64,000 nt of DNA from Antedon mediterranea. Lineage: Eukaryota; Animalia; Echinodermata. Positions 1 through 22,839 of the stretch are shown here, one piece after another. Below the pieces are notes generated by a model. That model did not search any database, had not been told where the DNA came from, and was given only the letters and a program-made list of their open reading frames with translations. The first letter of the stretch is position 1. Each line of letters begins with the position of its first letter. A program made the position numbers and the translations under genes. The stretch lies in the NCBI RefSeq assembly GCF_964355755.1, contig NC_092674.1:17608001-17672000 (forward strand), read 5' to 3'.

Positions 1-3000
1 TCTAAACTGTTACTGAATAATAAACGGTCTTTTGACTAAACAATTCACTGATTATTCTACTATGTATTTACAGTTTAAATTCTCTAAACTGTTACTGATT
101 AATCAACTACATTTTGACTAGACAATTCACTGATTATTCTACTATGTATTTGGATTTTAAATTCTCTAAACTGTTACTGACTAATCAACTGTCTTTTGAC
201 TAAACAATTCACTGATTATTCTACTATGTATTTGCAGTTTAAATTCTCTAAACTGTTACTGAATAATCAACTGTCTTTTGACTAAACAATTCACTGATTA
301 TTCTACTATGTATTTGCAGTTTAAATTCTCTAAACTGTTACTGAATAATCAACTGTCTTTTGACTAAACAATTCACTGATTATTCTACTATGTATTTGCA
401 GTTTAAATTATCTAAACTGTTACTGACTAATCAACTACTTTTGACTAGACAATTCACTGATTATTCTACTATGTATTTGCAGTTTAAATTCTCTAAACTG
501 TTACTGACTAATCAACTACATTTCGACTAGACAATTCACTGATTATTCTACTATGTATTTGCAGTTTAAATTCTCTAAACTGTTACTGAATAATAAACGG
601 TCTTTTGACTAAACAATTCACTGATTATTCTACTATGTATTTACAGTTTAAATTATCTAAACTGTTACTGAATAATCAACTACATTTTGACTAGACAATT
701 CACTGATTATTCTACTATGTATTTGCAGTTTAAATTCTCTAAACTGTTATTGAATAATCAACTGTATTTTGACTAGACAATTCATTGATTATTCTACTAT
801 TTACACATAGTTTATATTCTCTAAACTGTTACTGAATAATCAACTGTATTTTGACTAAACAATTCATTGATTATTCTACTATTTGCACACAGTTTAAATT
901 CTCTAAACTGTTACTGACTAATCAACTGTCTTTTGACTAAACAATTCACTGATTATTCTACTATGTATTTGCAGTTTAAATTATCTAAACTGTTACTGAA
1001 TAATAAACGGTCTTTTGACTAGACAATTCACTGATTATTCTACTATTTACACACAGTTTAAATTCCCTAAACTGTTACTGACTAATCAACTGTCTTTTGA
1101 CTAAACAATTCACTGATTATTCTACTATGTATTTGCAGTTTAAATTATCTAAACTGTTACTGAATAATAAACGGTCTTTTGACTAGACAATTCACTGATT
1201 ATTCTACTATTTACACACAGTTTAAATTCCCTAAACTGTTACTGACTAATCAACTGTCTTTTGACTAAACAATTCACTGATTATTCTACTATGTATTTGC
1301 AGTTTAAATTATCTAAACTGTTACTGAATAATAAACGGTCTTTTGACTAGACAATTCACTGATTATTCTACTATTTACACACAGTTTAAATTCCCTAAAC
1401 TGTTACTGACTAATCAACTGTCTTTTGACTAAACAATTCACTGATTATTCTACTATGTATTTGCAGTTTAAATTATCTAAACTGTTACTGAATAATCAAC
1501 TGTATTTTGACTAAACAATTCACTGATTATTCTACTATGTATTTGCAGTTTAAATTCTATAAACTGTTACTGAATAATAAACGGTCTTTTGACTAAACAA
1601 TTCACTGATTATTCTACTATGTATTTACAGTTTAAATTCTCTAAACTGTTACTGAATAATCAACTGTCTTTTGACTAGACAATTCACTGATTATTCTACT
1701 ATGTATTTGCAGTTTAAATTATCTAAACTGTTACTGACTAATCAACTACATTTTGACTAGACAATTCACTGATTATTCTACTATGTATTTGCAGTTTAAA
1801 TTATCTAAACTGTTACTGAATAATCAACTGTCTTTTGACTAGACAATTCACTGATTATTCTATGTGTTTGCAGTTTAAATTCTCTAAACTGTTACTGAAT
1901 AATCAACTGTCTTTTGACTAAAAAATTCACTGATTATTCTACTATGTATTTGCAGTTTAAATTCTCTAAACTGTTACTGAATAATCAACTGTCTTTTGAC
2001 TAAAAAATTCACTGATTATTCTACTATGTATTTGCAGTTTAAATTCTCTAAACTGTTACTGAATAATCAACTGTCTTTTGACTAAAAAATTCACTGATTA
2101 TTCTACTATGTATTTGCAGTTTAAATTCTCTAAACTGTTACTGAATAATCAACTGTATTTTGACTAGACAATTCATTGATTATTGTACTATTTACACACA
2201 GTTTAAATTATCTAAACTGTTACTGACTAATCAACTACTTTTGACTAGACAATTCACTGATTATTCTACTATGTATTTGCAGTTTAAATTATCTAAACTG
2301 TTACTGACTAATCAACTACTTTTGACTAGACAATTCACTTATTATTCTACTATGTATTTGCAGTTTAAATTCTCTAAACTGTTACTGATTAATCAACTAC
2401 ATTTCGACTAGACAATTCACTGATTATTCTACTATGTATTTGCAGTTTAAATTATCTAAACTGTTACTGACTAATCAACTACATTTTGACTAGACAATTC
2501 ACTGATTATTCTACTATGTATTTGCAGTTTAAATTCTCTAAACTGTTACTGACTAATCAACTACATTTTGACTAAACAATTCACTGATTATTCTAATATG
2601 TATTTGCAGTTTAAATTCTCTAAACTGTTAAGTGTTACTGAATAATCAACTGTCTTTTGACTAAAAAATTCACTGATTATTCTACTATGTATTTGCAGTT
2701 TAAATTCTCTAAACTGTTACTGAATAATAAACGGTCTTTTGACTAGACAATTCATTGATTATTGTACTATTTAGACACAGTTTAAATTCTCTAAACTGTT
2801 ACTGACTAATCAACTGCCTTTTGACTAGACAATTCACTGATTATTCTACTATGTATTTGCAGTTTAAATTATCTAAACTGTTACTGAATAATAAACGGTC
2901 TTTTGACTAGACAATTCACTGATTATTCTACTATTTACACACAGTTTAAAATCCCTAAACTGTTACTGACTAATCAACTACATTTTGACTAGACAATTCA

Positions 3001-6000
3001 CTGATTATTCTACTATGTATTTGCAGTTTAAATTATCTAAACTGTTACTGAATAATCAACTGTCTTTTGACTAAACAATTCACTGATTATTCTACTATGT
3101 ATTTACAGTTTAAATTCTCTAAACTGTTACTGAATAATCAACTGTCTTTTGACTAAACAATTCACTGATTATTCTACTATGTATTTACAGTTTAAATTCT
3201 CTAAACTGTTACTGAATAATAAACGGTCTTTTGACTAAACAATTCACTGATTATTCTACTATGTATTTACAGTTTAAATTCTCTAAACTGTTACTGATTA
3301 ATCAACTACATTTTGACTAGACAATTCACTGATTATTCTACTATGTATTTGGATTTTAAATTCTCTAAACTGTTACTGACTAATCAACTGTCTTTTGACT
3401 AGACAATTCATTGATTATTCTACTATTTACACATAGTTTAAATTCTCTAAACTTTTACTGACTAATCAACTACTTTTGACTAGACAATTCACTGATTATT
3501 CTACTATGTATTTGCAGTTTAAATTATCTAAACTGTTACTGACTAATCAACTACTTTTGACTAGACAATTCACTGATTATTCTACTATGTATTTGCAGTT
3601 TAAATTATCTAAACTGTTACTGACTAATCAACTACATTTCGACTAGACAATTCACTGATTATTCTACTATGTATTTGCAGTTTAAATTATCTAAACTGTT
3701 ACTGACTAATCAACTACTTTTGACTAAACAATTCACTGATTATTCTACTATGTATTTGCAGTTTAAATTCTCTAAACTGTTACTGACTAATCAACTACAT
3801 TTCGACTAGACAATTCACTGATTATTCTACTATGTATTTGCAGTTTAAATTATCTAAACTGTTACTGATTAATCAACTACATTTCGACTAGACAATTCAC
3901 TGATTATTCTACTATGTATTTGCAGTTTAAATTATCTAAACTGTTACTGACTAATCAACTACATTTTGACTAGACAATTCACTGATTATTCTACTATGTA
4001 TTTGCAGTTTAAATTCTCTAAACTGTTACTGAATAATAAACGGTCTTTTGACTAAACAATTCACTGATTATTCTACTATGTATTTGCAGTTTAAATTATC
4101 TAAACTGTTACTGACTAATCAACTACTTTTGACTAGACAATTCACTGATTATTCTACTATGTATTTGCAGTTTAAATTATCTAAACTGTTACTGACTAAT
4201 CAACTACATTTCGACTAGACAATTCACTGATTATTCTACTATGTATTTGCAGTTTAAATTATCTAAACTGTTACTGACTAATCAACTACTTTTGACTAAA
4301 CAATTCACTGATTATTCTACTATGTATTTGCAGTTTAAATTCTCTAAACTGTTACTGACTAATCAACTACATTTCGACTAGACAATTCACTGATTATTCT
4401 ACTATGTATTTGCAGTTTAAATTATCTAAACTGTTACTGATTAATCAACTACATTTCGACTAGACAATTCACTGATTATTCTACTATGTATTTGCAGTTT
4501 AAATTATCTAAACTGTTACTGACTAATCAACTACATTTTGACTAGACAATTCACTGATTATTCTACTATGTATTTGCAGTTTAAATTCTCTAAACTGTTA
4601 CTGAATAATAAACGGTCTTTTGACTAAACAATTCACTGATTATTCTACTATGTATTTGCAGTTTAAATTCTCTAAACTGTTACTGACTAATCAACTGCCT
4701 TTTGACTAGACAATTCACTGATTATTCTACTATGTATTTACAGTTTAAATTCTCTAAACTGTTACTGACTAATCAACTACATTTTGACTAAACAATTCAC
4801 TGATTATTCTAATATGTATTTGAAGTTTAAATTCTCTAAACTGTTAAGTGTTACTGAATAATCAACTGTCTTTTGACTAAAAAATTCACTGATTATTCTA
4901 CTATGTATTTGCAGTTTAAATTCTCTAAACTGTTACTGAATAATCAACTGTATTTTGACTAGACAATTCATTGATTATTGTACTATTTAGACACAGTTTA
5001 AATTATCTAAACTGTTACTGACTAATCAACTGCCTTTTGACTAAACAATTCACTGATTATTCTACTATGTATTTGCAGTTTAAATTCTCTAAACTGTTAC
5101 TGAATAATCAACTGCCTTTTGACTAAACAATTCACTGATTATTCTACTATGTATTTGCAGTTTAAATTCTCTAAACTGTTACTGACTAATCAACTACATT
5201 TCGACTAGACAATTCACTGATTATTCTACTATGTATTTGCAGTTTAAATTATCTAAACTGTTACTGACTAATCAACTACTTTTGACTAGACAATTCACTG
5301 ATTATTCTACTATGTATTTGCAGTTTAAATTCTCTAAACTGTTACTGACTAATCAACTACATTTCGACTAGACAATTCACTGATTATTCTACTATGTATT
5401 TGCAGTTTAAATTATCTAAACTGTTACTGACTAATCAACTACTTTTGACTAGACAATTCACTGATTATTCTACTATGTATTTGCAGTTTAAATTATCTAA
5501 ACTGTTACTGACTAATCAACTAAATTTCGACTAGACAATTCACTGATTATTCTAATATGTATTTGCAGTTTAAATTCTCTAAACTGTTACTGAATAATCA
5601 ACTGTATTTCGACTAAACAATTCATTGATTATTGTACTATTTACCAACAGTTTAAATTATCTAAACTGTTACTGAATAATCAACTGTCTTTTGACTAAAA
5701 AATTCACTTATTATTCTACTATGTATTTGCAGTTTAAATTCTCTAAACTGTTACTGAATAATCAACTGTATTTTGACTAGACAATTCATTGATTATTGTA
5801 CTATTTACACACAGTTTAAATTATCTAAACTGTTACTGACTAATCAACTACTTTTGACTAGACAACTCACTGATTATTCTACTATGTATTTGCAGTTTAA
5901 ATTATCTAAACTGTTACTGATTAATCAACTACATTTCGACTAGACAATTCACTGATTATTCTACTATGTATTTGCAGTTTAAATTATCTAAACTGTTACT

Positions 6001-7528
6001 GATTAATCAACTACATTTCGACTAGACAATTCACTGATTATTCTACTATTTACACACAGTTTAAATTCCCTAAACTGTTACTGACTAATCAACTGTCTTT
6101 TGACTAAACAATTCACTGATTATTCTACTATGTATTTGCAGTTTAAATTATCTAAACTGTTACTGACTAATCAACTACTTTTGACTAGACAATTCACTGA
6201 TTATTCTACTATGTATTTGCAGTTTAAATTCTCTAAACTGTTACTGAATAATCAACTACTTTTGACTAGACAATTCACTGATTATTCTACTATGTATTTG
6301 CAGTTTAAATTCTCTAAACTGTTACTGAATAATCAACTGTCTTTTGACTAGACAATTCACTTATTATTCTACTATTTACACACAGTTTAAATTATCTAAA
6401 CTGTTACTGACTAATCAACTACATTTTGATTAAACAATTTACTGATTATTCTACTATGTATTTGCAGTTTAAATTATCTAAACTGTTACTGACTAATCAA
6501 CTACTTTTGACTAGACAATTCACTGATTATTCTACTATGTATTTGCAGTTTAAATTATCTAAACTGTTACTGACTAATCAACTACTTTTGACTAGACAAT
6601 TCACTGATTATTCTACTATGTATTTGCAGTTTAAATTATCTAAACTGTTACTGACTAATCAACTACTTTTGACTAGACAATTCACTGATTATTCTACTAT
6701 GTATTTGCAGTTTAAATTATCTAAACTGTTACTGACTAATCAACTACTTTTGACTAGACAATTAACTTATTATTCTACTATGTATTTGCAGTTTAAATTC
6801 TCTAAACTGTTACTCAATAATCAACTGTCTTTTGACTAGACAATTCACTGATTATTCTACTATGTATTTGCAGTTTAAATTATCTAAACTGTTACTGATT
6901 AATCAACTACATTTCGACTAGACAATTCACTGATTATTCTACTATTTACACACAGTTTAAATTCTCTAAACTGTTCCTGAATAATCAACTGTATTTTGAC
7001 TAAACAATTCACTGATTATTCTACTATGTATTTGCAGTTTAAATTCTCTAAACTGTTACTGAATAATAAACGGTCTTTTGACTAAACAATTCACTGATTA
7101 TTCTACTATGTATTTACAGTTTAAATTCTCTAAACTGTTACTGATTAATCAACTACATTTCGACTAGACAATTCACTGATTATTCTACTATGTATTTACA
7201 GTTTAAATTCTCTAAACTGTTACTGACTAATCAACTACATTTTGAATAAACAATTCACTGATTATTCTAATATGTATTTGCAGTTTAAATTATCTAAACT
7301 GTTACTGATTAATCAACTACATTTCGACTAGACAATTCACTGATTATTCTACTATGTATTTGCAGTTTAAATTATCTAAACTGTTACTGATTAATCAACT
7401 ACATTTCGACTAGACAATTCACTGATTATTCTACTATGTATTTGCAGTTTAAATTATCTAAACTGTTACTGACTAATCAACTACATTTTGACTAGACAAT
7501 TCACTGATTATTCTACTATGTATTTGCA
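1..7528. repeat. 81-82 bp tandem satellite array (continues off the left edge)
   Basis: Unit TCTAAACTGTTACTGA(A/C)TAATCAACT..TTTTGACTA(A/G)ACAATTCACTGATTATTCTACTATGTATTTGCAGTTTAAAT(T/A) is repeated continuously and ends abruptly at ..TATTTGCA 7528. Confidence 0.98.
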
Positions 7529-10500
7529 AATCTTCATAGTTCTATAGAAAACTTGCAATGCTTTTAAATAATTTCTTGCTACTGCATGCCACTGAAATTA
7601 AAAACATAAACCTACCTTTGGATGGATCCTCCTCATTTTGTCATATAACTGTTGAAATTCATAGTAATGGAGAACTGGATTTTTGTTATAGACTTCTCTT
7701 GCCTACAAAAAAAAATAAAAATTGTATTTAATAATGTGATGGTGATTATTACAATTAAATAGATAATACATAAACATTAAACATACTGTTCTTTTTGGCA
7801 CATGACCCTCTTCTATTTGTCTGCCAAACAATTTAAATACAGCGTCCATAACGTCTTGGTTGTCGAATTTCGACTTTGGGCCATGTTTGCTTAGAGGATG
7901 GCTTACAGACTAGTTATATTGAAAGTAGAAAAATAATAAAGTCAAATTAATAGGTGAAATAAGTTTTACAGAAAATGTACTTTAAGTATTTCAAATGAGA
8001 ATTGTATTGATGTTTTAGATAACAATAATAATGACAATAATACCAGGAGTAATTAAAGTGCTTGTAAGATTAACTGGTGGATGATGTTAATATGAAATTG
8101 TATGCCACATATGGATTTGATTATGGGTGATTAGCATAGATTAAATTAAAATAAAATAAACACATTCTATAAACTCAGTACTACACAAAACTAAAAATGC
8201 ATGCAGTTATTTGGTGGTTGATGTTAAAATAAAAGTGTATGCCACATCAGGATTTCAACCCGAGACAAGAGTGTCGATGCTCTACCAGCTGAGCTATGAT
8301 AGCATCCTATAAAAGAAATAGATTTTAGTGATTAGCATGGATTAACACATTCTATAAACCACTAAACAAACAAAAAACGTGCATGCAGTTATCTGGTGGA
8401 TGATGTTAATATGAAAGTGTATGGCACATCAGGATTTGAACCCGAGACCAGAGTGCCGATGCTCTACAAGCTGAGCTATGATAGCATCCTATAAAAGAAA
8501 TAGATTTTAGTGATTAGCATGGATCAACACATTCTATAAACCACTAAACAAACAAAAAACGTGCATGCAGTTATCTGGTGGATGATGTTAATATGAAGGT
8601 GTATGCCACATCAGGATTTGAATCTGAAAAATTAGCATAGATTAAACTAAAATAAAACAAACACACAAACACATTCTATAAACTACTAAACAAATAAACA
8701 TGCATGCAGTTATCTGGTGGATGATGTGAGATATGAAAGTGTATGCCATATCAGGATTTGAATCTGAAAAATTAGTATAGATTAAATAAAAAAAAAAGCA
8801 CAAACACATTCTATAAACTACTAAGCTACCAACTGAGCTATGATAGCATTCTATAACAGAAGAAGATGTTGATATTTAGTATGGAAAAATCATTCTGAAA
8901 ACTACTACATTTAAACAATATACAACTGCAAAGTGAGGATTTGAACAATTACTTTAGAAACTACAGAAGTTATCTTGGGGAGGCCTCAAATTAGTTTGTA
9001 TAAATAAATTAACTAAGCATACAAACTAGAGAATACAAAGAGTAATGTGCAAATTTAAAAAGTAAACATTTTCCTGTTCTTTGAGATACCAAGACCTGAT
9101 AAAAACAGTTAAAGAATGTCCATACAAGTACAAGGGACATTTTGCTGACCTGAAATAAAAACTAATTAAACAAGTACAGTAAAGCCAAATATACCAGGAA
9201 ACTTTGCTGACCTGGTAAAAACATTAGTGCAATATATTGGGAGACTCAAAATCCTACCATCACTCAAGGAATCATACTGCAGTACTAAAACGATAATGTA
9301 CAGTACTCATACAAATTGTTTAAAAATACTACATCAACGTTGACCATATATTGCAGTACCAATTAAAAAGAGTGTGGACTGGAGTGTGGTCTGGCAATAT
9401 TAGTTTGATGCTTTACAAATGTGTCCTTATTAACAATTATTGAATACTTACAGATGATGGCGCTTCATTCGCATGTGCTTGAGAAATTTCCTGGTGAATG
9501 TAAAATAATATTGTACATAATACCATTACTTGTTTCATTATTCGTAAAGAGGTATACAAGATAATAATAATGATTACATAGAATTCAGTCCTGTAAATAA
9601 ATGGACACTGGAAAAATATATATTTATGTGAAAATTGTATCTTACCAGCATTTCATCTATGGTGTCCTCCACACTTGAAAATGCAACCTAGAAAAGATAT
9701 ACCTTAAAGTGAAGTATGTATTGCATTTGGGATAATAAAAGCTTAATATTAAAATGATTTAAGATGCGAAATTGTGTTCCTTTAATTGGTAGTTATACAG
9801 CATTTATAAAACACATAAATTATACAGTTTGCATTCTTTTGTTTTTTATATGAAAGTAATGGCCATCCTTACCTGGACATCAGCAGTTTCATTTATATTC
9901 TGAAAAAGTGTACATAGCACATTAAAAAAAGTAAAGTAAAATTTTAGTTAATAGATGCAATGTTTGTTTTCTTGTTGATTGCTAATTATTAAAGTGTTAG
10001 ATATATTCTTTATATTATGTTATGTTTCAATAAAAAATAAACATCTTTCGGGATACAAACATTTTAGACAGAAATTAAATCTTACCCCACTTCTCCCGAG
10101 TTGACGGTTTGCTGCTATAAGATTGTGGGCTCTTACAGCCGTCTCCCGGGATTGCGTGGCTACTAAAACAAAATAAAAATGAAAGTGTATGCCAGATCAG
10201 GATTTGAACCGGAGACCTTCGACTAGAGTGCCGATGCTCTACCAGCTGAGCTATGTTAGCATTCTATACAAGAAATAAATTTTAGTGATTAGCATGGATT
10301 AACACATTCTATAAACTACTAAACAAAAACATGCATGCAGTTATCTGGTGGATGATGTTAATATGAAAGTGTATGCCACATCAGGATTTGAATCTGAGTG
10401 ATTAGCATAGATTAAATTAAAATAAAACAAACATACATACAAACACATTATATAAACTACTAAATAAATAAACATGCATGCAGTTATCTGGTGGATGATG

Positions 10501-13500
10501 TGAGATATGAAAGTGTATGCCACATCATGAATTAAATCTGAGTGATTAGCATAGATTAAATTAAAGTAAAATAAACACACAAACACATTCTATAAACTAC
10601 TAAACAAATAAACATGCATGCAGTAATCTGGTGGATGATGTGAGATATGAAAGTGTATGCCATATCAGGATTTGAATCTGAAAAATTAGCATAGATTAAA
10701 CTAAAATAAAACAAACACACAAACACATTCTATAAACTACTAAACAAATAAACATGCATGCAGTTATCTGGTGGATGATGTGAGATATGAAAGTGTATGT
10801 CACATCTGAATTTGAAAAATTAGTATAGATTAAATTAAAATAAACAAAAACTGAAACACATTCTATAAACTACTAAACAAATAAACATGCATGCAGTTAT
10901 CTGGTGGATGATGTTAGATATGAAAGTGTATGCCACATCAGGATTTGAATCCGAGTGATTAGCATAGATTAAATTAACAAAAATAAACACACAAACACAT
11001 TCTATAAAGTACTGAATAAATAAACATGCATGCAGTTATCTGGTGGATGATGTGAGATATGAAAGTGTATGCCACATCAGGATTTGAACCCGAGACCTTC
11101 GACAAGAGTGCCGATGCTCTACCAGCTGAGCTATGATAGCATTCTATAAAAGAAATAGATTTTAGTGATTAGCATGGATTAACACATTCTATAAACTATT
11201 AAACAAAAAACATGCATGCAGTTATCTGGTGGATGATGTTAATATGAAAGTGTATGCCACATCAGGATTTGAATCCGAAAAATTAGCATAGATTAAATTT
11301 AAAAAAAACAAACACACAAACACATTCTATAAACTACTAAACAAATAAACATTCATGCAGTTATCTGGTGGATGATGTTAATATGAAAGTGTATGCCACA
11401 TCAGGATTTGAATCTGAGTGATTAGCATAGATTAAATTAAAATAAAACAAACATACAAACACATTCTATAAACTACTAAACAAATAAACATTCATGCAGT
11501 TATCTGGTGGATGATGTTAATATGAAAGTGTATGCCACATCAGATTTGAATCTGAGTGATTAACATAGATTAAATTAAAATAAAACAAACACACAAACAC
11601 ATTCTATAAACTACTAAATAAATAAACATGCATGCAGTTATCTGGTGGATGATGTTAGATATGAAAGTGTATGCCACATCAGGATTTGAATCTGAGTGAT
11701 TAGCATAGATTAAATTAAAATAAAACAAACATACAAACACATTCTATAAACTACTAAACAAATAAACATGCATGCAGTTATCTGGTGGATGATGTTAATA
11801 TGAAAGTGTATGCCACATCAGGATTTGAATCTGAGTGATTAGCATAGATTAAATTAAAATAAAACAAACATACAAACACATTCTATAAACTACTAAACAA
11901 ATAAACATTCATGCAGTTATCTGGTGGATGATGTTAATATGAAAGTGTATGCCACATCAGGATTTGAATCTGAGTGATTAGCATAGATTAAATTAAAATA
12001 AAACAAACACACAAACACATTCTATAAACTACTAAATAAATAAACATGCATGCAGTTATCTGGTGGATGATGTTAATATGAAAGTGTATGCCACATCAGG
12101 ATTTGAACCCGAGACCTTCGACAAGAGTGCCGATGCTCTACCAGCTGAGCTATGATAGCATTCTATAAAAGAAATAGATTTTAGTGATTAGCATGGATTA
12201 ACACATTCTATAAACTACTAAACAAATAAACATGCATGCAGTTATCTGGTGGATGATGTTAATATGAAAGTGTATGCCACATCAGGATTTGAATCTGAGT
12301 GATTAGCATAGATTAAATTAAAGTAAAATAAACACACAAACACATTCTATAAACTACTAAACAAAAAAAAAACATGCATGCAGTTATCTGGTGGATGATG
12401 TTAATATGAAAGTGTATGCCACATCAGGATTTGAACCTGAGACTTTCAACAAGAGTGCCGATGCTCTACCAGCTGAGCTATGATAGTATTCTATAAAAGA
12501 AATAGATTTTAGTGATTAGCATGGATTAACACATTCTATAAACCACTAAAACAAAATATTAAAAATTAAATACACAGTTATTGAGTGGATGATGTATGAC
12601 ACATCAGGATTTGAACTAGATGTAAATGTTCAGAAATAAGGTTATTTATTTATTATAAAATTATGTGTGAATATTTTTGCCTTTAAAATAGTTTACTTTT
12701 CCCATTCTCCTAGTTTAATTTAATAAAATTAAAATTGCCAATCATCCAATGCCTGAAATAAAAGGTAACATACTACATTTTTATATATCAATAGTAAAAG
12801 TAAAAGGATAGCCAGCCAGACAACCATAATAATATTGTGCAAGAATGCACCCAGATAGATTAAGGGTACTTGGAAATCAATTAACTACTACTGTACTTAG
12901 TTTAGTAAAAGGATTTTGATCATTTACATAGTGACCTTGTCCTGGTAAATACAGGTGAACCTTAGAACAATATCATAATCAACATTTTACCTATACCTAA
13001 TTACCTTTACTAACACAATGACTAAATAAGCTAGGATTAAGGTTAGTTTTAGTTATTTCTCCTAGTTTCTCCTAGTCTTTACCTAATAACATACAATATG
13101 ATAAATCTTATGATTATCAATACATTTTATGGATAAAGAAATAATATAAAAAACATACCAACTATGCTTTTAATTGTTTTCTCAGATTTTCTGAGATAAT
13201 GGGATTGTTCGTCCGCCGAAACTAGATCACCTTAAAAGAAAATTAAAACATATTATTATTATTATTTCAATTTAAATAATATGACTTTCAAACATTTGAT
13301 GAAAAGAAAAACTTTAATTCAATAGATGTTACCTTCAATTTCTTCGTGCTTTTTGGCCTTCTCTTCAGAAATGCGTTTTCTGAGAGCTTTGCTCAGGCCT
13401 TTGCATGCATCTTTGCACTTGTATATTTCGGCAAGCGAAACAGATTTAGATTCGTATATTGAAATGTAGTCCAATATTTTCACAAAGGAGCACAGGTAGT

Positions 13501-16500
13501 GTCTTAACGTGGAGCCAGCAAGCTTCAATTGTAAATGGCTAACAGCACTAAACAATTATTTTTAAAAAAATGAAAAGAAGAGTACAATACACAAAAATCG
13601 AATATTAAAATATGTAATATCTTCATTATAGTAATTAGGATCGAGTGATTCATGGTAACTTCACATGGTTTAAAATTCAATTCAAATTCAACTTAACATT
13701 TATTTCTTCCTTCAAGAAAATGAAGGTAGCAGGCAATAATACATTATACTCACAATCTATAGCTGACATTTAAGAAAACTTTTTATTTTAATGCTAAATG
13801 AAATTTAAATTGTTTGGCTTCTTCCTTTTTCTATTAATATAATTGTAATAAAAAAATGTTACGTCTTTAATATCTTTGGAGAATATCCCTTCTCCCCTGC
13901 TTCACTCCAAATTCCCTCTATCCCCTTTATGACCTGTGCTGCATGCTTTGCCGGTATTTTTAAAGTTTCTAACATGTAGGCCTTGAACCGGCTCATTGCT
14001 GTAGATGGCTCTATAGAAGTTAAAAAGACTTTAATGACATTAAAAATAAGTCCATTCTTGGAAAACAAAGTTCAGGATCCGAAAGTTGACCCATGACATA
14101 ATTATTATTATATTACAATTGTTATTACAGTAATTTTATTTATTAGTGTCTGGGATTGGTTATCTAAATTAATAGTAATTATTTGGGATAAAGAGAACTT
14201 TGTATTTGACCTAAATGTAGTAGTTAGTAGTAGAAATTAGGTAATTATAATTCTCCAGCATAGATAAAATGAATTGTTTTTGTCAATAAAAGGTACACAT
14301 TTATTTTTAAATTGAAACTATTAATTATCTATCAAAAAATGAAACTTTATAATAATTTTATAAATAAAAGGTTACCTGCAAATTTACAGACTTTTTGTTG
14401 TCTGAACTTAATATATTCAGGACTGCCAACCAAAAAAAAAATGTAAATGTATAACTTACCTATATAACTTTGATTTGCATCACAATTAAGCTAAGAAATT
14501 AGCATGGATTAAGACATACAGCGAAAATTAAAGTATTTAAAAACAATTACAAAGTAAATAAAAAATAAACATGCATGCAGTAATCTGGTGGATGATGTTA
14601 ATATGAAAGTGTATGCCACATCGGGAATTGAATCTGAGTGATTACCATAGATTAAATTAAAATAAAATAAACACACAAACACATTCTATAAACTACTAAA
14701 CAAAAAAACATGCATGCAGTTATCTGGTGGATGATGTTAATATGACAGTGTATGCCACATCAGGATTCAAACCCGAGACCTTCGACAAGAGTGCCGATGC
14801 TCTACCAGCTGAGCTATGATAGCATTCTATAAAAGAAATAGATTTTAGTGATTAGCATGGATTAACATATTCTATAAACTACTAAACAAAAAAACGTGCA
14901 TGCAGTTATCTGGTGGATGATGTTAATATGAAGGTGTATGGCACATCAGGATTTGAATCTGAAAAATTAGCATAGATTAAACTAAAATAAAACAAAACAC
15001 AAACACATTCTATAAACTACTAAACAAATAAACATGCATGCAGTTATCTGGTGGATGATGTTAATATGAAAGTGTATGCCACATCAGGATTTGAACCCGA
15101 GATCTTCGACAAGAGTGCCGATGCTCTACCAGCTGAGCTATGATAGCATTCTATAAAAGAAATAGATTTTAGTGATTAGCATAGATTAACACATTCTATA
15201 AACTACTAAACAAAAAAAACATGCATGCAGTTATCTGGTGGATGATGTTAATATGAAAGTGTATGCCACATCAGGATTTGAATCTGAGTGATTAGCATAG
15301 ATTAAATTAACAAAAATAAACACACAAACACATTCTATAAACTACTAAACAAATAAACATGCATGCAGTTATCTGGTGGATGATGTTAATATGAAAGTGT
15401 ATGCCACATCAGGATTTTAATCCGAGTGATTAGCATAGATTAAATTAAAGTAAAATAAACACACAAACACATTCTATAAACTACTAAACAAAAAAACATG
15501 CATGCAGTTATCTGGTAGATGATGTTAATATGAAAGTGTATGCCACATCAGGATTTAAATCTGAAAAATTAGCATAGATTAAATTAAAATAAAACAAACA
15601 CACAAACACATTCTATAAACTACTAAACAAATAAACATGCATGCAGTTATCTGGTGGATGATGTTAATATGAAAGTGTATGCCACATCAGGATTTGAACC
15701 CGAGACCTTCGACAAGAGTGCCGATGCTCTACCAGCTGAGCTATGATAGCATTCTATAAAAGAAATAGATTTTAGTGATTAGCATGGATTAACACATTCT
15801 ATAAACTACTAAACAAAAAAAACATGCATGCAGTTATCTGGTGGATGATGTGAGATATGAAAGTGTATGCCACATCCGAATTTGAATCTGAAAAATTAGT
15901 ATAGATTAAATTAAAAAAAACAAAAACTGAAACACATTCTATAAACTACTAAACAAATAAACATGCATGCAGTTATCTGGTGGATGATGTTAATATGAAA
16001 GTGTATGCCACATCAGGATTTGAATCTGAAAAATTAGCATAGATTAAATTTTTAAAAAACAAACACACAAACACATTCTATAAACTAGTAAACAAATAAA
16101 CATGCATGCAGTTATCTGGTGGATGATGTTAATATGAAAGTGTATGCCACATCAGGATTTGAATCTGAGTGATTAGCATAGATTAAATTAAAATAAAACA
16201 AACATACAAACACATTCTATAAACTACTAAACAAATAAACATTCATGCAGTTATCTGGTGGATGATGTTAATATGAAAGTGTATGCCACATCAGGATTTG
16301 AATCTGAGTGATTAGCATAGATTAAATTAAAATAAAACAAACACACAAACACATTCTATAAACTACTAAATAAATAAACATGCATGCAGTTATCTGGTGG
16401 ATGATGTTAATATGAAAGTGTATGCCACATCAGGATTTGAATCTGAAAAATTAGCATAGATTAAATATAAAAAAAACAAACATACAAACACATTCTATAA

Positions 16501-19500
16501 ACTACTAAACAAATAAACATGCATGCAGTTATCTGGTGGATGATGTTAATATGAAAGTGTATGCCACATCCGAATTTGAATGTGGTGGATTTAAGCATAG
16601 ATTAAAATAAAACAAACACACATTCTATTAAATACTAACAAAATAATAAATAATTTTAAAGTGTACTGCATGTACACCTCAAAATTTGGACCTGAGACAG
16701 AGTGGTGATACTCTACGAACTCTAAAAAATAGATTTTTGTAATTAACATACATATTTAAAAAAAAAATAAACAATAAACAAACAATTATAATAGTTGGAA
16801 ATACATTACTACTCTACACACTATTTCTTGGTCTGAAATAAAACAAAAAATTTAATTTAACATTTGATTGAACATATATCTGCTAAAGTTGAAAGAATTT
16901 TAACTTACAGGGAATTTATGCTTCCTTTGCAGATGCATGTCATACCTTGCCAGGTTTTTAGCCGAACATCCAGGCACACTGCAGGAATGTCTGGCCTTTT
17001 TTTTTCCCCCTTAAAGAAAACTTTAAATGATACACTCATGATAACTAGATAAAACATACAAAACTGTTTATCATTTTTCAATAATCCAATCACAGTATTC
17101 AATTCACCCAAAAATAGAAACCATTGAGAATGTTTGGTTTTCAATACATTACAAGTGCAGTTTTCGGTTTCCAGTATTGGTAGAGTTAACTAGTAAAATA
17201 TTCTATAAAAAAGAAACTGCAAACAAAACTAAGATAAATAAAAATATGTAATTTATTATATTTAGCTGAAGAAACTCCATGTTATACTTAACAATATGTT
17301 ATTTATAATTTAGCTGGTAACCACATGAAAAAAATTGTTCATAATGAATGAAGTACTCACCTTTTTCTAGCATCAGCAACCATGTTTTTAATTATTTCTC
17401 TATTTATTATTTTGTGGGCCTTTTCCAGATGGCTGGCAAGGTACCTGCTTATGCGGCCACACAGAATGCATGTTAACAATTTTCTGTTCTGTAGGCAATA
17501 ATAAACCATGACTATTTTGAATGAATGCTTTAAGGTCTATTCATTATCAACAACCAATATCAAAATATAAAATTTTATATTATTTGTATTCAATAAAAAA
17601 AACTATTTTAATGAAGTTAAATAATTTAAGACTTCAGTAACCACAGATGTAAACTACAACTATCTACGGTAATTAGATTTTTGATGCTAATCTACAGGGA
17701 AAATTTAATCTAGCTAAATTGATAATAAAAAAAATGAGGAAACAAAGTTTAAGTTAATATTTTACTTCAAATTAAGTACAAAAGTATATTCAATATGCTA
17801 CTTTCCCTTACAGCTTTCTTCTTTTCTATGTCCTTCCTAATAAAAACAAAATACAACACATAGGTATTAAAGGAAAAGTACTGATAAAGTAATATAATAT
17901 TTCATGTTAACTGTATATAACTACCGTATTTTTATTTTTACATTATTTAATAACATAGCATTTAGGGCCTAAGTGATCCATTGGCTGTTTATTTTAATTA
18001 CAGTATTAGTCAAAAAATATTATATTTACTTTTTTCCCTTCTTTTGAAAATCACTATACCTAAACAAATTAAAAAAATATTGTTATGGTTATAGTAATAA
18101 CTAAAGTTAACACAAATAAGGATGCTCAATAGTATATGTTTTGCTACATAATAAGCTCAATCTAGAAAAATAATACTGGTAAATTTTAGAAAATGATAAA
18201 CTATGTTCATTCTAGAATGTCTAAATACAAAACAGTTCATAACTTACATCTCAACTACCTCCTCTTCTTTTTCCTCGTCTTCTTTCTCGCTTTCTTCTTC
18301 TTCTTCTTCCTCCTCCTCCTCCTCCATGTTTTCCTCTTCCTCCATTTCTTCTTCCTCGTCTTCTTTCTCATTTTCTTCCTCCTCCATGTTTTCCTCTTCC
18401 TTATTTTCTTTCTTCTCAAATTCTCCATCCTCACTTCTATTAATAGTTCACAAAGTACACACAAATATTGTAGGTGTATTAAAATAAAAGTCGAAAAAAA
18501 AAAACTATTTATAGACCTACTATGAAATAATATAGAAATTATATAAGCATGTATGTTTGCACAAATTAGAATAGATGTTTGGCTTTAGGTAAATAAACAA
18601 CAGTATATATCCTATTCTTCGTTAACAAAATAATTTCAAGTATTTATTTTTTAACAAAAATAAGTTTGAATTGTATGGTGTGAATAATAAAGTATAAATA
18701 ATTACGTCAAAATAAAACAAAATTGTAAATTTATGGCAAAAATGGTTTATCACAGATAACAAATCACCCGAGTTAACTAACTGGTTAATTATTGAACCGA
18801 TTAATATTAAAATTTGCAAGGTAGGCTCAAATTAAACCCTAGCCATCAGCGCAAGATCAGTAATCTGGATGTCGTGGTTCATACAAACACAACAGATTTA
18901 TTCTCAAATTGGATACTTACACTTTGTCAGACATGTAGTCTTCTTTGCTACTAATAATAAAATTAAACAAATATTGTTAGTTAATTTTTACTTTGAAAAA
19001 CAAATACAGGCTCTAATTATTAACCTCTTTTATTTCATTAAAGCAAATAATTAAAAAAATCATTTCAAACCCTTACTTTTTTATCATTATGAATAAAAAT
19101 GAATAAAGGTTTGTTTATAACATGTCATTTTTCAAGAAGGCTGTACCAACGAAGATACAATATTGGAATTAAAAATAAAATACTTACCATCTAAATTTGT
19201 CATGGATGTAAAAATGGAGTAATTTATCAATAAATTTCTAACTATACTTACCAGTCTTCATGATTAAAAAAAATCGCTTTCAGTTAATTCATCAGGTTGC
19301 TATAAAAAAATAATGTTATTATTATTGTATATTTGTTACAAATAATTAAACTAAAGTTATCCGTAACTATTATTACATAGTGCAGTATTATTATTACTTT
19401 TCTAAGGCTTAACCTTACTTTTATATACTGTACTTGAAAAAGTTGAATTCCATGACTAAGATAAGCTCTAGATAAATGGATTATTACATTTGTGATTCAG

Positions 19501-19777
19501 CCAAGGAGCATTATCAGTACGGGACATGTCAGCTCATTTAGGAGATTAGATTAGTAATGACGTACATTTTATAAAAAGTCTGCTTTAGCGATAACATTTT
19601 ATAAACTTAAAATACCAACAACTGACAACAACCATTTGGTCCAGCATAAAATCTGGATGTTTCAGTATACAAAGCGAGTTGAATCGCTCCACCAAACCTG
19701 GAATAAATCATCCTGGATTCAGGTAAATTTAGGTAAATGAATTGTTTACTTACGGGTGAATTACAAAAACGGTCCAT
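7473..19777 (-). CDS. Multi-exon gene (possibly a pseudogene): acidic region, 2x C2H2 zinc finger, YR-like core-binding region and Myb-like C-terminus; no catalytic YR domain found
   Basis: Hand-built exons with GT..AG flanks on the minus strand: 19777-19754 (ATG, MDRFCNSP), 19299-19252, 18950-18921, 18436-18248, 18059-18030, 17836-17812, 17488-17361, 17009-16909, 14490-14460, 14010-13863, 13547-13333, 13230-13159, 10162-10086, 9899-9873, 9687-9646, 9490-9452, 7909-7787, 7702-7616, 7541-7473 (TAG). Phases are compatible throughout except for one extra base in each of two homopolymer runs (19266-19273, 16997-17005). The two most upstream exons and 14490-14460 are the least certain. Confidence 0.72.
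7616..7909 (-). CDS. Two exons encoding a Myb/SANT-like helical C-terminal domain
   Basis: 7909-7787 SVSHPLSKHGPKSKFDNQDVMDAVFKLFGRQIEEGHVPKRT (123 nt) and 7702-7616 AREVYNKNPVLHYYEFQQLYDKMRRIHPK (87 nt). Both are phase 0 with canonical splice sites. The Myb-like call is by motif resemblance. Confidence 0.7.
8070..8860 (-). repeat. Intronic tRNA-derived tandem repeat, array 1 (degenerate)
   Basis: Units contain CATGCATGCAGTTATCTGGTGGATGATGTTAATATGAAAGTGTATGCCACATCAGGATTTGAA. tRNA-like copies at ~8240-8303 and ~8422-8484 carry a 7-nt deletion. Confidence 0.9.
10178..12620 (-). repeat. Intronic tRNA-derived tandem repeat, array 2 (~119-bp and ~170-bp units)
   Basis: Short units keep only the T-arm/B-box half. 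Long units carry the full tRNA-like sequence (10190-10260, 11070-11140, 12089-12159, 12417-12487). Confidence 0.93.
11070..11140 (-). tRNA. tRNA-like sequence or pseudo-tRNA (Lys-CTT-like), representative copy
   Basis: Minus strand GCTATCA-TAGCTCAGCTGGTAGAGCA-TCGGC-ACTCTT-GTCGA-AGGTC-TCGGGTTCAAATCCTGA-TGTGGCA has A box, B box, D arm and T arm. The anticodon loop is 6 nt and the acceptor stem is bulged, so it is probably not a functional tRNA. Confidence 0.65.
13159..14010 (-). CDS. Three exons encoding a tyrosine-recombinase-like core-binding (SAM-like) region
   Basis: Spliced in phase (1/2/1/1): EPSTAMSRFKAYMLETLKIPAKHAAQVIKGIEGIW..KILKT|AVSHLQLKLAGSTLRHYLCSFVKILDYI..LRKRISEEKAKKHEEIE|GDLVSADEQSHYLRKSEKTIKSIV. 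The STxxxYLxSxxxxxxY helix pattern is typical of integrase N-terminal domains. Confidence 0.65.
14495..16700 (-). repeat. Intronic tRNA-derived tandem repeat, array 3
   Basis: Same two unit types; full tRNA-like copies at 14753-14823, 15077-15147 and 15680-15750. Confidence 0.93.
16909..17488 (-). CDS. Two C2H2 zinc-finger exons
   Basis: 17488-17361 NRKLLTCILCGRISRYLASHLEKAHK.. with donor AG|GTGAGT. 17009-16909 ..HSCSVPGCSAKNLARYDMHLQRKHKFP with donor GTAAGT. Neither reading is in the ORF track. Confidence 0.8.
18248..18436 (-). CDS. Glu-rich acidic exon
   Basis: 189 nt, phase 2/2, AG..GTAAGT; reads SEDGEFEKKENKEEENMEEEENEKEDEEEEM..EEEVVEM. Confidence 0.75.
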
Positions 19778-19859
19778 TTTGAAATAATCTGTGGAACAAA
19801 TGATACATTTTTTGAAGAAAAAAAAAGCACTGAAGCCAGGGGTAGCATATACTTGCTAA

Positions 19860-20385
19860 CGAGAAGGGCCTACTGTGGTCCAACTTTTAATACCCTCTCC
19901 TTTATGCTAGGCCTAGGGGCCTACTCTAACCTAGCTAGTGTGGTATGATTGATAGGCCTAGCTAGAGACTAGGCCTATACATGACATAGGCCTACACCTA
20001 ACCTCCTATCTAGGCTACAGACAGATTCAGCCAACTAGGCTAGGCCTAAACTATTATTAACCTAGCCTAGGCCTAGCTAGGTAGACCAGGCTAGTAGGCC
20101 CTATAGCCTGGCCCAAGGAGGTAGGTTTAGTTCCTACCCTATCTAGGCCTATAATAATACTTTAATACGCAGGCCTAGGCCTAGCTAGGTAGGCTATGCC
20201 TAGCTAAGCTAGCTAGGACCTAGCCTAGCTAGGAGGGCTTATTAATTATTGTTAGGCCTCTAGCTAGCTAGCTAGGCCTAGCCTAGCTAGGCCTAGGCCT
20301 AGCCCTCTAGGGCCTAGGCTAGTAGGCCTAAGCCTAACTAGGGGCCTCTAGGCTAGGCCTAGCCTAGGCCTAGGTTAGGCCACAA
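19860..20385. repeat. CTAG/AGGCCT palindromic low-complexity tract in the predicted first intron
   Basis: Dense CTAGGCCTAG and CTAGCTAG motifs lie between the donor at 20532 and the ATG exon at 19788. Confidence 0.8.
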
Positions 20386-20532
20386 TCATTTTATGGTGGT
20401 ATTTTTTTATTTTGGCCATTTAAAACAAAAAATCTCTGTACTTTAGTACAGGGATTAAGGCACTTGGTTATGCAATAAAAATTTATGTTAGGATAATAAA
20501 ATGTAATAAAAGTACCTAGCTTATAGCCTTAC

Positions 20533-20790
20533 CTTTCTACAAACAGTCTGTTTTAACGATCAGATCAATACAGATGAATTTAAAAATTTAAAAAAACACC
20601 GCGTCCGGATGGGTTTATTTATAAAATTAGTGAAAGAGGCTGAATGCCAGTGATTACCTAACTGTTGAAAATTCTTCAATCGACGCGAGTGCATCTGAAA
20701 TCAGCATAATTGCACCCAAAAAACAGGTTGCATCGCGATATGCTGATCGGCCGCCGCTGATTAGCATTGAAAAGTTGCATTGTGCGCTCC
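20533..20790 (-). promoter_or_regulatory. Putative non-coding first exon and promoter of the minus-strand gene
   Basis: Strong donor AAAG|GTAAGG at 20532, a locally CpG-containing segment at 20600-20790, and the CTAG tract downstream. Inferred only. Confidence 0.4.
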
Positions 20791-22386
20791 CTCGCTGATC
20801 TATCTCTCTCTCGCTGATCTATCTCTCTTTCTCGCTGATCTATCTCTTTCTCGCTGATGTATCTCTCTCTCGCTGATCTATCTCTCTCTCGCTGATCTAT
20901 CTCTCTCTCGCTGATCTATCTCTATCTCGCTGATCTATCTCTCTCTCGCTGATCTATCTCTCTCTCGCTGATCTATCTCTCTCTCGCTGATCTATCTCTT
21001 TCGCTGATCTATCTCTCTCTCTCGCTGATCTATCTCTCTCTCGCTGATCTATCTCTCTCGCTGATCTATCTCTCTCTCGCTGATCTATCTCTCTCGCTGA
21101 TCTATCTCTCTCTCGCTGATCTATCTCTCTCGCTGATCTATCTCTCTCGCTGATCTATCTCTCTCTCGCTGATCTATCTCTCTCTCACTGATCTATCTCT
21201 CTCTCGCTGATCTATTTCTCTCGCTGATCTATTTCTCTCTCTCGCTGATCTATCTCTCTCTCGCTGATCTATCTCTCTCTCGCTGATCTATCTCTCTCTC
21301 GCTGATCTATCTCTCTCTCTGATCTATCTCTCTCGCTGATCTATCTCTCTCTCGCTGATCTATCTCTCTCTCGCTGATCTATCTCTCTCTCGCTGATCTA
21401 TCTCTCTTTCGCTGATCTATCTCTCTCTCGCTGATCTATCTCTCTCTCGCTTATCTATCTCTCTCTCGCTGATCTATCTCTCTCTCTCGCTGATCTATCT
21501 CTCTCTCGCTGATCAATCTCTCTCTCGCTGATCTATCTCTCTCGCTGATCTATCTCTCTCTCGCTGATCTATCTCTCTGTCGCTGATCTATCTCTCTTTC
21601 GCTGATCTATCTCTCTCTCGTTGATCTATCTCTCTCTCGCTGATCTATCTCTCTCTCGCTGATCTATCTCTCTCTCTCGCTGATCTATCTCTCTCTCTCG
21701 CTGATCTATCTCTCTCTCGCTGATCTATCTCTCTCTCGCTGATCTATCTCTCTCTCTCGCTGATCTATCTCTCTCTCTCGCAGATCTATCTCTCTCGCTG
21801 ATTTATCTCTCTCTCGCTGATCTATCTCTCTCTCGCTGATCTATCTCTCTCTCTCGCTGATCTATCTCTCTCTCGCTGATCTATCTCTCTCTCGCTGATC
21901 TATCTCTCTCGCTGATCTATCTCTCTCTCGCTGATCTATCTCTATCTCGCTGATCTATCTCTCTCTCGCTGATCTATCTCTCTCTCGCTGATCTATCTCT
22001 CTCTCGCTGATCTATCTCTCTCGCTGATCTATCTCTCTCTCTCGCTGATCTATCTCTCTCTCGCTGATCTATCTCTCTCTCGCTGATCTATCTCTCTCTC
22101 TCGCTGATCTATCTCTCTCGCTGATCTATCTCTCTCTCGCTGATCTATCTCTCTCGCTGATCTATCTCTCTCGCTGATCTATCTCTCTCTCGCTGATCTA
22201 TCTCTCTCTCACTGATCTATCTCTCTCTCGCTGATCTATTTCTCTCGCTGATCTATCTCTCTCGCTGATCTATCTCTCTCTCGCTGATCTATCTCTCTCT
22301 CGCTGATCTATCTCTCTCTCGCTGATCTATCTCTCTCTCGCTAATCTATCTCTCTCTCGCTGATCTATCTCTCTCTAGCTGATCTA
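20791..22386. repeat. 17-21 bp pyrimidine-rich minisatellite (CGCTGATCTA(TC)nT)
   Basis: Continuous repeats of CTCGCTGATCTATCTCTCT with a variable CT count. Confidence 0.98.
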
Positions 22387-22835
22387 CAGTATATTGTGTT
22401 AACATCATCTAATTGAGCCATAGTAACGAGTTATGTCTAAAAATAAAAGGGTCGAAATTTGGCCATTTTTCGAAAAATTTCCCTGCGGGGGACTATAGGA
22501 TTTTTTCCAAAAATTTTAAAATTTTCCACTTTTTAAAATTCAATAATTATGCTATAATATTGCCATTTATGCAAATATATTGTGCTAACATCATCTTATA
22601 GAGCCATAGTTACTAGTTATGTCAAAAAATAAAACGATCGAAATTTGGCCATTTTTGAAAATTTTCCTGCTGGGGACCATAGGAATTTTTTCGAAAAATG
22701 GCAAACCTTTCCACTTTTTAAAATTCGAAAATTATGCTGTAATATTGCCATTTACGCACATACATACCCTTTTTTTTTACATAACTAGTTACTATGCTTG
22801 TAAAAAGACTATGGCTCTATAAGATGATGTTAATA
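22387..22835. repeat. ~186-bp repeat family A (two forward units, then an inverted fragment)
   Basis: ATATTGTGTTAACATCATCTTATAGAGCCATAGTAACTAGTTATGTC.. at ~22391 and ~22577; reverse-complement fragment at ~22768-22835. Confidence 0.88.
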
Positions 22836-22839
22836 CTGT

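What the first reader, a model, noticed from the sequence alone, without database searches (positions are those of the whole stretch)
7473..20790. Hidden micro-exon gene for a zinc-finger / tyrosine-recombinase-like / Myb-like protein, bracketed by two satellite arrays
Seen: about 18-19 minus-strand exons, many only 24-48 nt, whose splice phases chain into one protein (acidic tract, CxxC..HxxxH and CxxxxC..HxxxH fingers, a helical STLRHYLCSF region, and a C-terminal AVFKLFGRQIEEGHVP..NPVL..LYDKMR domain). The ORF track shows only scraps of it. From memory, this layout matches poorly characterised intron-containing animal proteins with a tyrosine-recombinase fold (Crypton-like). Inference: the ~13-kb unit between the 82-bp satellite and the CT minisatellite could be a large intron-rich YR-type mobile element, or a gene derived from one, with satellite-expanded ends.
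Basis: partly seen in the sequence, partly recalled or inferred. Interest (0 to 1): 0.85.

Follow-up and report, generated by a model that had tools for sequence, protein, structure and literature searches.

The report
Recombinase-derived gene missing its catalytic core
An animal genome holds a real, spliced gene of about 20 mostly tiny exons that likely descends from the DNA cut-and-rejoin enzyme of a jumping gene; it keeps predicted DNA-binding parts but, as assembled, lacks the cutting domain, so this copy would not be able to move itself.

Summary
The gene is real. GT-AG exons lie on the minus strand, 4 of 11 testable junctions appear spliced at the predicted bases in one RNA-like run, and 23 of 36 listed differences to a related organism are synonymous. 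An 18-exon model reads open for 482 aa, but needs one weak acceptor and skips one candidate exon. Recombinase ancestry is supported indirectly: the only database hit, a crinoid protein (E 1e-7; 42% over 96 aa across exons 13-14), matches a tyrosine-recombinase profile from the core-binding domain to the first catalytic arginine (0 of 500 shuffles as good). The likeness ends at exon 14, and no catalytic domain is detectable in the window. So this is a recombinase derivative with fingers and core-binding domain but no catalytic core. Frameshifted sister copies exist. The satellite brackets are weak evidence: 52% of the window is tandem arrays and the ends share no repeat. The Myb label was neither confirmed nor excluded. 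Verdict: gutted member of a barely described animal recombinase family; domestication or an assembly gap remain open.

The parts
1..7528 (.). 82-bp satellite, about 92 units, runs off the window; its first unit overlaps the predicted last coding exon
7473..7541 (-). Exon 21, predicted last coding exon; stop codon lies inside the first satellite unit
   Evidence: AG acceptor and open phase-0 frame; not covered by laid reads
7616..7702 (-). Exon 20, second half of the C-terminal helical domain (NPVL, LYDKMR); Myb-like by recall only
   Evidence: no Pfam/PDB match
7787..7909 (-). Exon 19, first half of the C-terminal domain (AVFKLFG, GHVP)
8070..8850 (-). Intronic array of the 139-bp family with tRNA-like pieces (intron 18-19)
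9452..9490 (-). Exon 18 (39 nt), linker
9646..9687 (-). Exon 17 (42 nt), linker
9873..9899 (-). Exon 16 (27 nt), linker
10086..10162 (-). Exon 15 (77 nt); does not match the Box I region of the homologue; by recall it resembles the helix after the catalytic tyrosine
   Evidence: 1744 of 2000 shuffles score as well
10163..13158 (-). Intron 14-15: 543 unique bases plus a 2.45-kb 139-bp/tRNA-like array; the place where the catalytic domain would be expected
13159..13230 (-). Exon 14 (72 nt), linker and helix before the catalytic domain
   Evidence: junction to exon 13 seen in X5; matches P0003, 0 of 2000 shuffles as good
13333..13547 (-). Exon 13 (215 nt), core-binding (SAM-like) domain region, STLRHYLCSF
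   Evidence: hit to P0003 E 1e-7; 12 of 14 listed differences to organism B synonymous; P0003 aligns to recombinase profile
13863..14010 (-). Exon 12 (148 nt), likely first helices of the core-binding domain
   Evidence: 3 of 6 differences synonymous
14376..14422 (-). Exon 11 (47 nt)
14559..16623 (-). Intronic array of the 139-bp family with tRNA-like pieces (intron 10-11)
16678..16712 (-). Exon 10 (35 nt with acceptor 16712; acceptors 16721 or 16691 also possible)
   Evidence: phase fit and 2 of 3 differences synonymous; unverified
16805..16832 (-). Candidate exon 9; strong acceptor, finger-tail-like peptide, but out of phase with exon 8
   Evidence: unresolved
16909..16990 (-). Exon 8, second finger CxxxxC..HxxxxH; acceptor uncertain (16990 fits the phase, 17009 does not)
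   Evidence: 4 of 5 differences synonymous; indel-variable acceptor region
17361..17488 (-). Exon 7, first finger CxxC..HxxxxH
   Evidence: weak Pfam finger hits E 0.09 and 0.15, below cut-off
17812..17836 (-). Exon 6 (25 nt), basic
18030..18059 (-). Exon 5 (30 nt), basic
18248..18436 (-). Exon 4 (189 nt), acidic tract
   Evidence: acceptor seen in X5 joint
18921..18950 (-). Exon 3 (30 nt), holds the first Met of the long frame
   Evidence: both ends seen in X5 joints
19252..19299 (-). Exon 2 (48 nt), spliced; stop in the frame of the exon-1 ATG
   Evidence: both ends seen in X5 joints
19754..19788 (-). Exon 1 as counted here (35 nt) with an upstream ATG; further untranslated exons may lie at 20528-20780
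   Evidence: donor seen in X5 joint
20787..22386 (.). 19-bp CT-rich minisatellite, about 85 units, just upstream of the gene

Best explanation
This is a spliced, many-exon animal gene likely descended from the tyrosine recombinase of a mobile element, and the catalytic domain is missing from it as assembled. Shown: exons, four splice junctions, coding constraint, homology of exons 13-14 to a crinoid protein that runs on into a recombinase Box I, and no detectable catalytic domain in the window. Inferred: the ancestral protein was acidic tract, two C2H2-type fingers, core-binding domain, catalytic domain, short helical tail. The roughly 130-150 aa catalytic core was lost in frame between two phase-1 introns, plausibly by recombination between copies of the 139-bp intronic array, which now fills that intron and two others. 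Any protein made would bind DNA through fingers and core-binding helices but could not cut. The locus is one of several related copies, some frameshifted, so it is best read as a non-autonomous, still transcribed member of a small element-derived family lying in satellite-rich DNA. The two flanking satellites are not shown to be its ends.
For: Junctions. Constraint: 24 of 36 listed differences at third positions (p 4e-5), 23 of 36 synonymous; rough pN/pS 0.05 in exon 13, 0.07 in exon 8, 0.29 and 0.36 in exons 12 and 7. Homologue: 1 hit among 1.84 billion proteins, XP_033114909.1 of Anneissia japonica; 42% over 96 aa with no gap at the exon 13/14 junction, ending at the end of exon 14. A profile of 77 prokaryotic recombinases scores P0003 11.4 bits, E 8.9e-6 for the single comparison, 0 of 500 shuffles as high, collinear from the core-binding helix to the arginine matching XerD R148. 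Atlas: nearest clusters are unnamed animal proteins (0.95-0.97); 8 of the 10 best named hits share a family or clan, and the listed names are mostly recombinase families (0.81-0.86, lead only). Missing core: the window model scores -0.4 bits, 153 of 500 shuffles as high; best of 2,917 six-frame pieces E 5.9; P0003's post-exon-14 tail finds nothing above shuffles (30 vs mean 30.4). Arg-to-Tyr spans 128-152 aa in 6 of 6 reference enzymes. Sister copies: X4 has three versions of exon 13, two with frameshifting indels; X6 and X8 have two each.
Against: Recombinase ancestry rests on one 161-aa homologue and a weak profile score; hhalign of the thin alignments gave only E 0.15, though with the same register. 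Absence of the core is a negative result on possibly tiny, diverged exons. Synonymous excess on both main lineages (by my reading: 7 of 7 changes private to organism B's main version of exon 13) fits a working gene better than a dead copy. 7 of 11 testable junctions were not seen, the exon 14-15 junction was not testable, and X5 is RNA only by the tool's guess. Dispersed copies at unrelated loci were not shown (no genome held).
Confidence: 0.55

Rival explanations
1. The core-less protein is kept on purpose: a domesticated DNA-binding protein, or a repressor/helper of its own element family, that binds target repeats through fingers, core-binding domain and tail without cutting.
For: Strong synonymous excess in exons 8 and 13 between organisms A and B; in-frame loss; spliced RNA-like contigs; organism B shares the intron DNA at 12560-12960 and the start of the array. 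Precedent: ALOG domains derive from the recombinase N-terminal domain (PMC3537659, abstract start and passages); DUF3504 genes lost catalytic residues (PMC3212892 abstract).
Against: Stop in exon 2 in the frame of the first ATG; phase trouble at exons 7-10; frameshifted sister copies; satellite-rich setting; not shown that organism B lacks the core too; the constraint may date from catalytically intact ancestors.
Confidence: 0.2
2. The gene is a complete recombinase in the animal (or in most copies) and the catalytic exons are missing only from this assembly or haplotype, dropped by collapse or recent recombination between near-identical intronic arrays.
For: The gap coincides with a 2.45-kb array whose units match those in two other introns at 85-99%; purifying selection is what an active recombinase would show; the window differs from all laid runs at 17010-17014; the intron is not bridged end to end.
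Against: Exons 14 and 15 join in phase (one chance in three if accidental); unique intron DNA up to the array is matched without differences by X4 (12560-13113); no trace of catalytic exons anywhere in 64 kb.
Confidence: 0.2
3. One reading: the 13-kb unit bounded by the two satellites is itself an intact recombinase-driven mobile element with satellite-expanded ends.
For: Recombinase ancestry; several copies; related elements target repeats: CryptonV in microsatellites (PMC8869645 passage), nimavirus recombinases in telomere repeats (PMC10871703 abstract and passages); the gene abuts a CT-rich array.
Against: No catalytic domain; no terminal repeat beyond chance 6-7-mers; 52% of the window is arrays and the longest array-free gap is 8.9 kb; the two flanks are unrelated repeats.
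Confidence: 0.05

Closest known systems
C2H2 + SAM-like tyrosine recombinases of endogenous nimaviruses and related decapod proteins (PMC10871703; abstract and passages read)
   Same: Animal-associated recombinases with a C2H2 finger and an N-terminal SAM-like domain; some are multi-exon; the paper finds them distinct from Cryptons and DIRS; they insert into repeats.
   Different: Those keep most catalytic residues and serve large viruses; here the catalytic domain is absent. Sequence kinship was not tested (their sequences were not on hand).
CryptonV DNA transposons (Kapitonov and Jurka 2012, seen only as a citation and one sentence in PMC8869645; table entry in PMC5753468)
   Same: Animal recombinase-encoding DNA transposons; some families sit in microsatellites; this gene abuts a CT-rich array.
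   Different: That this finger-bearing family corresponds to CryptonV or CryptonH is a recalled lead.
CryptonA / DUF3504 elements and derived genes ZMYM, QRICH1, KCTD1 (PMC3212892; abstract and part 1 of 3 of Results read; PMC13465315 passages)
   Same: Intron-containing eukaryotic recombinase genes; derivatives without catalysis that act as DNA- or protein-binding factors.
   Different: Those keep a degenerate catalytic domain (DUF3504); here the domain is gone whole, and no DUF3504 hit was found.
ALOG domain proteins of plants (PMC3537659; abstract start and passages)
   Same: The recombinase N-terminal DNA-binding domain reused without the catalytic domain: what this gene would work like if domesticated.
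   Different: Derived from DIRS1-type retroposons, zinc ribbon inserted in the domain, conserved host genes; no sequence match here.
XP_033114909.1, uncharacterized LOC117115294, Anneissia japonica
   Same: 42% identity over exons 13-14.
   Different: A 161-aa predicted fragment that continues into Box I with the catalytic arginine; no fingers or tail in the record.

Membership tests
Tyrosine recombinase superfamily | Core-binding (SAM-like) helical domain (PMC8138268 passages) | tested here: met
   Indirect: exons 13-14 match P0003, whose same region aligns to the core-binding part of a 77-sequence profile, 0 of 500 shuffles as good. The window model alone does not score.
Tyrosine recombinase superfamily | Catalytic domain with R-K-H-R-H pentad and tyrosine | tested here: not met
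   No signal in six frames (best E 5.9), in the model, or with the homologue's Box I tail. Holds for the assembled window only.
Tyrosine recombinase superfamily | Recombinase fold by structure comparison | tested here: inconclusive
   Models of P0003 had mean pLDDT 38.8 and 48.1; fold searches gave only generic helical hairpins.
Crypton (F, S, A, I) | DUF3504 or GCR1_C domain | tested here: not met
   No such Pfam hit for 8 exon translations, 2 read-throughs or P0003 at E up to 10; Atlas lists DUF3504 clusters only at 0.83-0.84.
Crypton (F, S, A, I) | Short terminal direct repeats at defined ends | tested here: inconclusive
   Only 6-7-mer matches, E 1.8 or worse, between 200-base stretches at the two junctions; true ends are unknown.
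CryptonV | Insertion inside a microsatellite, same repeat on both sides | tested here: inconclusive
   CT-rich 19-bp array upstream; unrelated 82-bp array downstream runs off the window.
CryptonV | Sequence kinship with Repbase CryptonV proteins | not testable with these tools
   No Repbase sequences; 3 papers mention the name.
Mobile element (any) | Several copies at unrelated loci with shared ends | tested here: inconclusive
   Three versions of exon 13 in X4, two in X6 and X8; flanks unknown, no genome held.
Nimavirus-type C2H2 recombinases | C2H2 finger plus SAM-like domain before the catalytic domain | tested here: met
   Two Cys/His fingers in exons 7 and 8, core-binding region in exons 12-14; architecture only.
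Nimavirus-type C2H2 recombinases | Placement in that clade on a tree | not tested
   No clade members retrieved.
Myb/SANT domain | Three-helix domain with spaced aromatic residues | tested here: inconclusive
   No Pfam hit and one unrelated PDB hit at E 2 for exons 19-20; not folded.
Domesticated transposon gene | Purifying selection between species | tested here: met
   23 of 36 listed differences synonymous; tables are cut, but at most about 2 differences are unlisted for exons 7 and 13.
Domesticated transposon gene | Single copy, intact frame, conserved synteny | tested here: inconclusive
   Frameshifted sister copies; frame questions at exons 2 and 7-10; synteny not testable.

The most novel reading that the evidence does not exclude
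A recombinase of a barely described animal transposon family shed its whole catalytic domain through recombination between its own intronic repeats, and the core-less finger/core-binding/tail protein has since been kept by selection in at least two species as a repeat-binding protein or repressor of its family: an animal counterpart of the plant ALOG story, caught young.
Probability: 0.2. Interest if true: 0.75.

Novelty: new variant of a known kind. Interest (0 to 1): 0.45.

Why it matters
The protein family has no Pfam model, yet its nearest Atlas clusters are unnamed proteins from chordates, molluscs and arthropods, and my searches found no paper devoted to it (subscription journals and Repbase Reports are not covered). 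The locus gives a concrete exon map for such a gene, invisible to ORF and domain scans. If the core-less form is what selection keeps, it is a recent, testable case of a recombinase turning into a DNA-binding factor. If not, it is one more gutted copy, useful mainly as a pointer to the intact element.

Tried and rejected
No whole genome is held, so paralogue flanks could not be counted. Word-index protein searches found nothing: exon 13 (55 candidates, 0 scored), exons 19-20 read through their intron (9, 0), P0003 (336, 0); all three looked only at longer proteins. Pfam, PHROGs, NCBIfam: nothing above cut-off; one PHROG of unknown function at E 0.0026 for P0003. PDB sequence searches: nothing significant. 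tblastn of P0003 on phages and plasmids: best E 2. Related-locus scans of viral and metagenome contigs with exon 13 and P0003: none confirmed. A degenerate Box I pattern on viral contigs gave 2 loci with the same unrelated protein. Structure models were too poor and fold searches uninformative; the Atlas structure search gave nothing above its bar. No RNA holder is on record as such; gaps in contig cover were not used as findings. Contig depth ratios (about 3:1 and 5:3 at some variants in X4) hint at more than two near-identical copies but depth is no copy number, so I did not rely on them. I first read the end of exon 15 as Box I; rejected. I first suspected homopolymer assembly errors in exon 2 and at the exon-8 acceptor; exon 2 matches X1 and X4 contigs, and the exon-8 difference is a 12-13 base indel. 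ARAGORN finds no tRNA gene. Earlier-findings look-ups by sequence and place were blank. The Kojima 2020 review is not held. PMC10942377 and PMC13465017 (passages) only name Crypton-H and Crypton-V as repeat classes. No supplements were opened; those of PMC10871703 may hold recombinase sequences that bear on the family placement.
Full report
Setting. The window is AT-rich eukaryotic DNA (GC mostly 26-46%). Tandem arrays cover 52% of it, with LINE-like, Gypsy-like and hAT-like fragments that I named by eye from the ORF list (not searched against families). No genome is held. The only protein homologue comes from a crinoid, which fits an animal origin.

Is the gene there? Yes. Reading both halves and enumerating AG..GT pieces gives about 21 candidate exons on the minus strand. 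In the 7,765 non-array bases, GT[AG]AG occurs 20 times on the minus strand and twice on the plus. Exons 11-21 chain into 314 aa with no internal stop and exons 3-7 into 133 aa. From the open frames, nine successive phase matches in exons 11-20 would arise about 2 times in 10,000 by chance; this is my arithmetic and ignores that I chose the boundaries. Eight runs hold the stretch; five were laid in two calls. Run X5, RNA by the tool's guess, shows four joints at the predicted bases, all GT-AG: exons 1-2, 2-3, 3-4 and 13-14. That is 4 of 11 model junctions inside the laid stretches; the four other runs show none. Against organism B, 24 of 36 listed exon differences are at third positions and 23 are synonymous. 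The tables are cut, but contig totals leave room for at most about two unlisted differences in exons 7 and 13.

Where the chain is not clean. Exon 2 is spliced but has a stop in the frame of the exon-1 ATG; X1 and X4 contigs match the window there, so the long frame opens at a Met in exon 3. Exon 7 ends in phase 2; the pyrimidine-rich acceptor of exon 8 needs phase 1, and only a purine-rich acceptor at 16990 fits. All laid depth of X1, X4 and X5 has 12 or 13 more bases at 17010-17014 than the window. By my reading of that table, indels of unequal length there are harmless only if the stretch is intronic, which favours 16990. The candidate exon at 16832 is out of phase with exon 8.

What the protein is. 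Domain libraries are blank. A full HMMER scan with exons 12-14 read through their introns returned 1 protein of 1.84 billion: P0003, E 1e-7, an uncharacterized 161-aa protein of Anneissia japonica. It aligns with the spliced model at 42% over 96 aa straight across the exon 13/14 junction and stops at the end of exon 14. To test P0003, I built a profile from 77 distinct prokaryotic recombinases: 71 distinct of 80 XerD-like loci plus XerC, XerD, FimB, FimE, lambda Int and Cre; the 80 near-identical lambda loci were left out. P0003 scores 11.4 bits, E 8.9e-6 for the single comparison, above all 500 shuffles (max 7.2), collinear from the 'T..Y' helix of the core-binding domain to Box I, with its arginine on XerD R148. 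The Atlas agrees as a lead: 8 of the 10 best named hits share a family or clan, with resolvase, integrase, DUF3435 and DUF3504 clusters listed at 0.81-0.86, while the nearest clusters are unnamed animal proteins at 0.95-0.97. hhalign on thin alignments gave the same register but E 0.15. Folding failed.

What is missing. After exon 14 the homologue goes on into Box I; the window does not. Exon 15 does not match that tail, the tail finds nothing above shuffles downstream, the model does not score on the profile, and none of 2,917 six-frame pieces does. The Arg-to-Tyr span is 128-152 aa in the six reference enzymes; exons 15-18 give 62 aa that look like linker. From memory of this family, exon 15 resembles the helix just after the catalytic tyrosine; this is not tested. 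The intron where the core should be holds 543 unique bases and a 2.45-kb array of a 139-bp unit with tRNA-like pieces; the same unit fills two other introns and was found nowhere else in the window. Recombination between such arrays would delete the exons between them. An assembler collapsing them would do the same, and no laid contig bridges this intron.

Copies and flanks. X4 holds three versions of exon 13, two with frameshifting indels, and a version of exon 12 with a 65-base replacement that X5 shares; X6 and X8 hold two versions each. So this is a small family with decayed members. The flanking satellites are unrelated to each other, the junction stretches share only chance 6-7-mers, and the longest array-free gap in the window is 8.9 kb, so being bracketed says little. 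It remains notable that the predicted last exon ends inside the first 82-bp unit, and that related elements target repeats (CryptonV; nimavirus recombinases).

How it most likely works. Ancestor (inferred): an element-borne recombinase with fingers and core-binding domain for site recognition and a catalytic domain for cutting and rejoining (domain roles from PMC8138268 passages). This copy (partly shown): transcribed and spliced at least in part, core lost in frame, so any product would bind but not cut; mobility would need an intact partner. I put 0.55 on a non-autonomous derivative, 0.2 on a selected core-less protein, 0.2 on loss only in this assembly or haplotype, 0.05 on an intact 13-kb element.

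Comparison and novelty. It works like other recombinase derivatives that keep DNA binding (ALOG; DUF3504 genes). Its layout is closest to the C2H2 + SAM-like recombinases of nimaviruses. It fails the catalytic test for an active recombinase and the DUF3504 test for CryptonA; CryptonV membership is untestable here. Two earlier notes of this scan describe similar gutted copies in other genomes; I did not check them, and they lower the surprise of a deleted core. Verdict: a real, cleverly spotted gene, a new variant of a known kind, interest 0.45.

Noticed in passing
window 8240-15750, minus strand: Nine tRNA-like pieces (7 of 9 above the Rfam gathering score; shortened anticodon loop) are interleaved in the 139-bp intronic arrays; ARAGORN calls none. 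The 139-bp unit was found only in three introns of this gene within the window.
   Followed up: partly
window 13333-13669: Exon 13 differs from organism B at 14 listed sites of 215, nearly all synonymous, while the adjoining stretch 13529-13669 differs at 3 of 141, two of them shared with X4. An exon more diverged than its intron is unexplained; exchange between copies or constrained introns could do it.
   Followed up: no
window 7473-7541: The predicted last exon merges into the first unit of the 82-bp satellite and takes its stop codon there; the satellite may have grown from the gene's 3' end.
   Followed up: partly
window 13685-13725, 16755-16793, 18824-18861: Short intronic stretches with far higher contig depth and many loose ends: fragments of abundant interspersed repeats.
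   Followed up: no
window 24330-30700 and 51290-57900: Duplicated block: an element with inverted ends (24334-25228; again near 51308-52436, there with a nested palindromic insert), 25-bp satellite and a broken LINE-like element, in two near-identical copies.
   Followed up: no
window 46177-50573: Gypsy-like element on the minus strand with short terminal repeats and two long frames (453 and 687 aa) separated by one stop; named by eye.
   Followed up: no
window 43502-51310: Possible larger DNA element around the Gypsy-like insert; both ends carry a tagtccaggacta motif and it includes a CTAG-rich tract like the one at 20175-20381.
   Followed up: no
window 22385-23789 and 38888-43501: Modules of 186-bp and 87-bp tandem units recur in both orientations, inverted around 40.9 kb.
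   Followed up: no
window 37803-38240, minus strand: 145-aa frame that looks like a fragment of a hAT/ZMYM-type transposase; by eye only.
   Followed up: no
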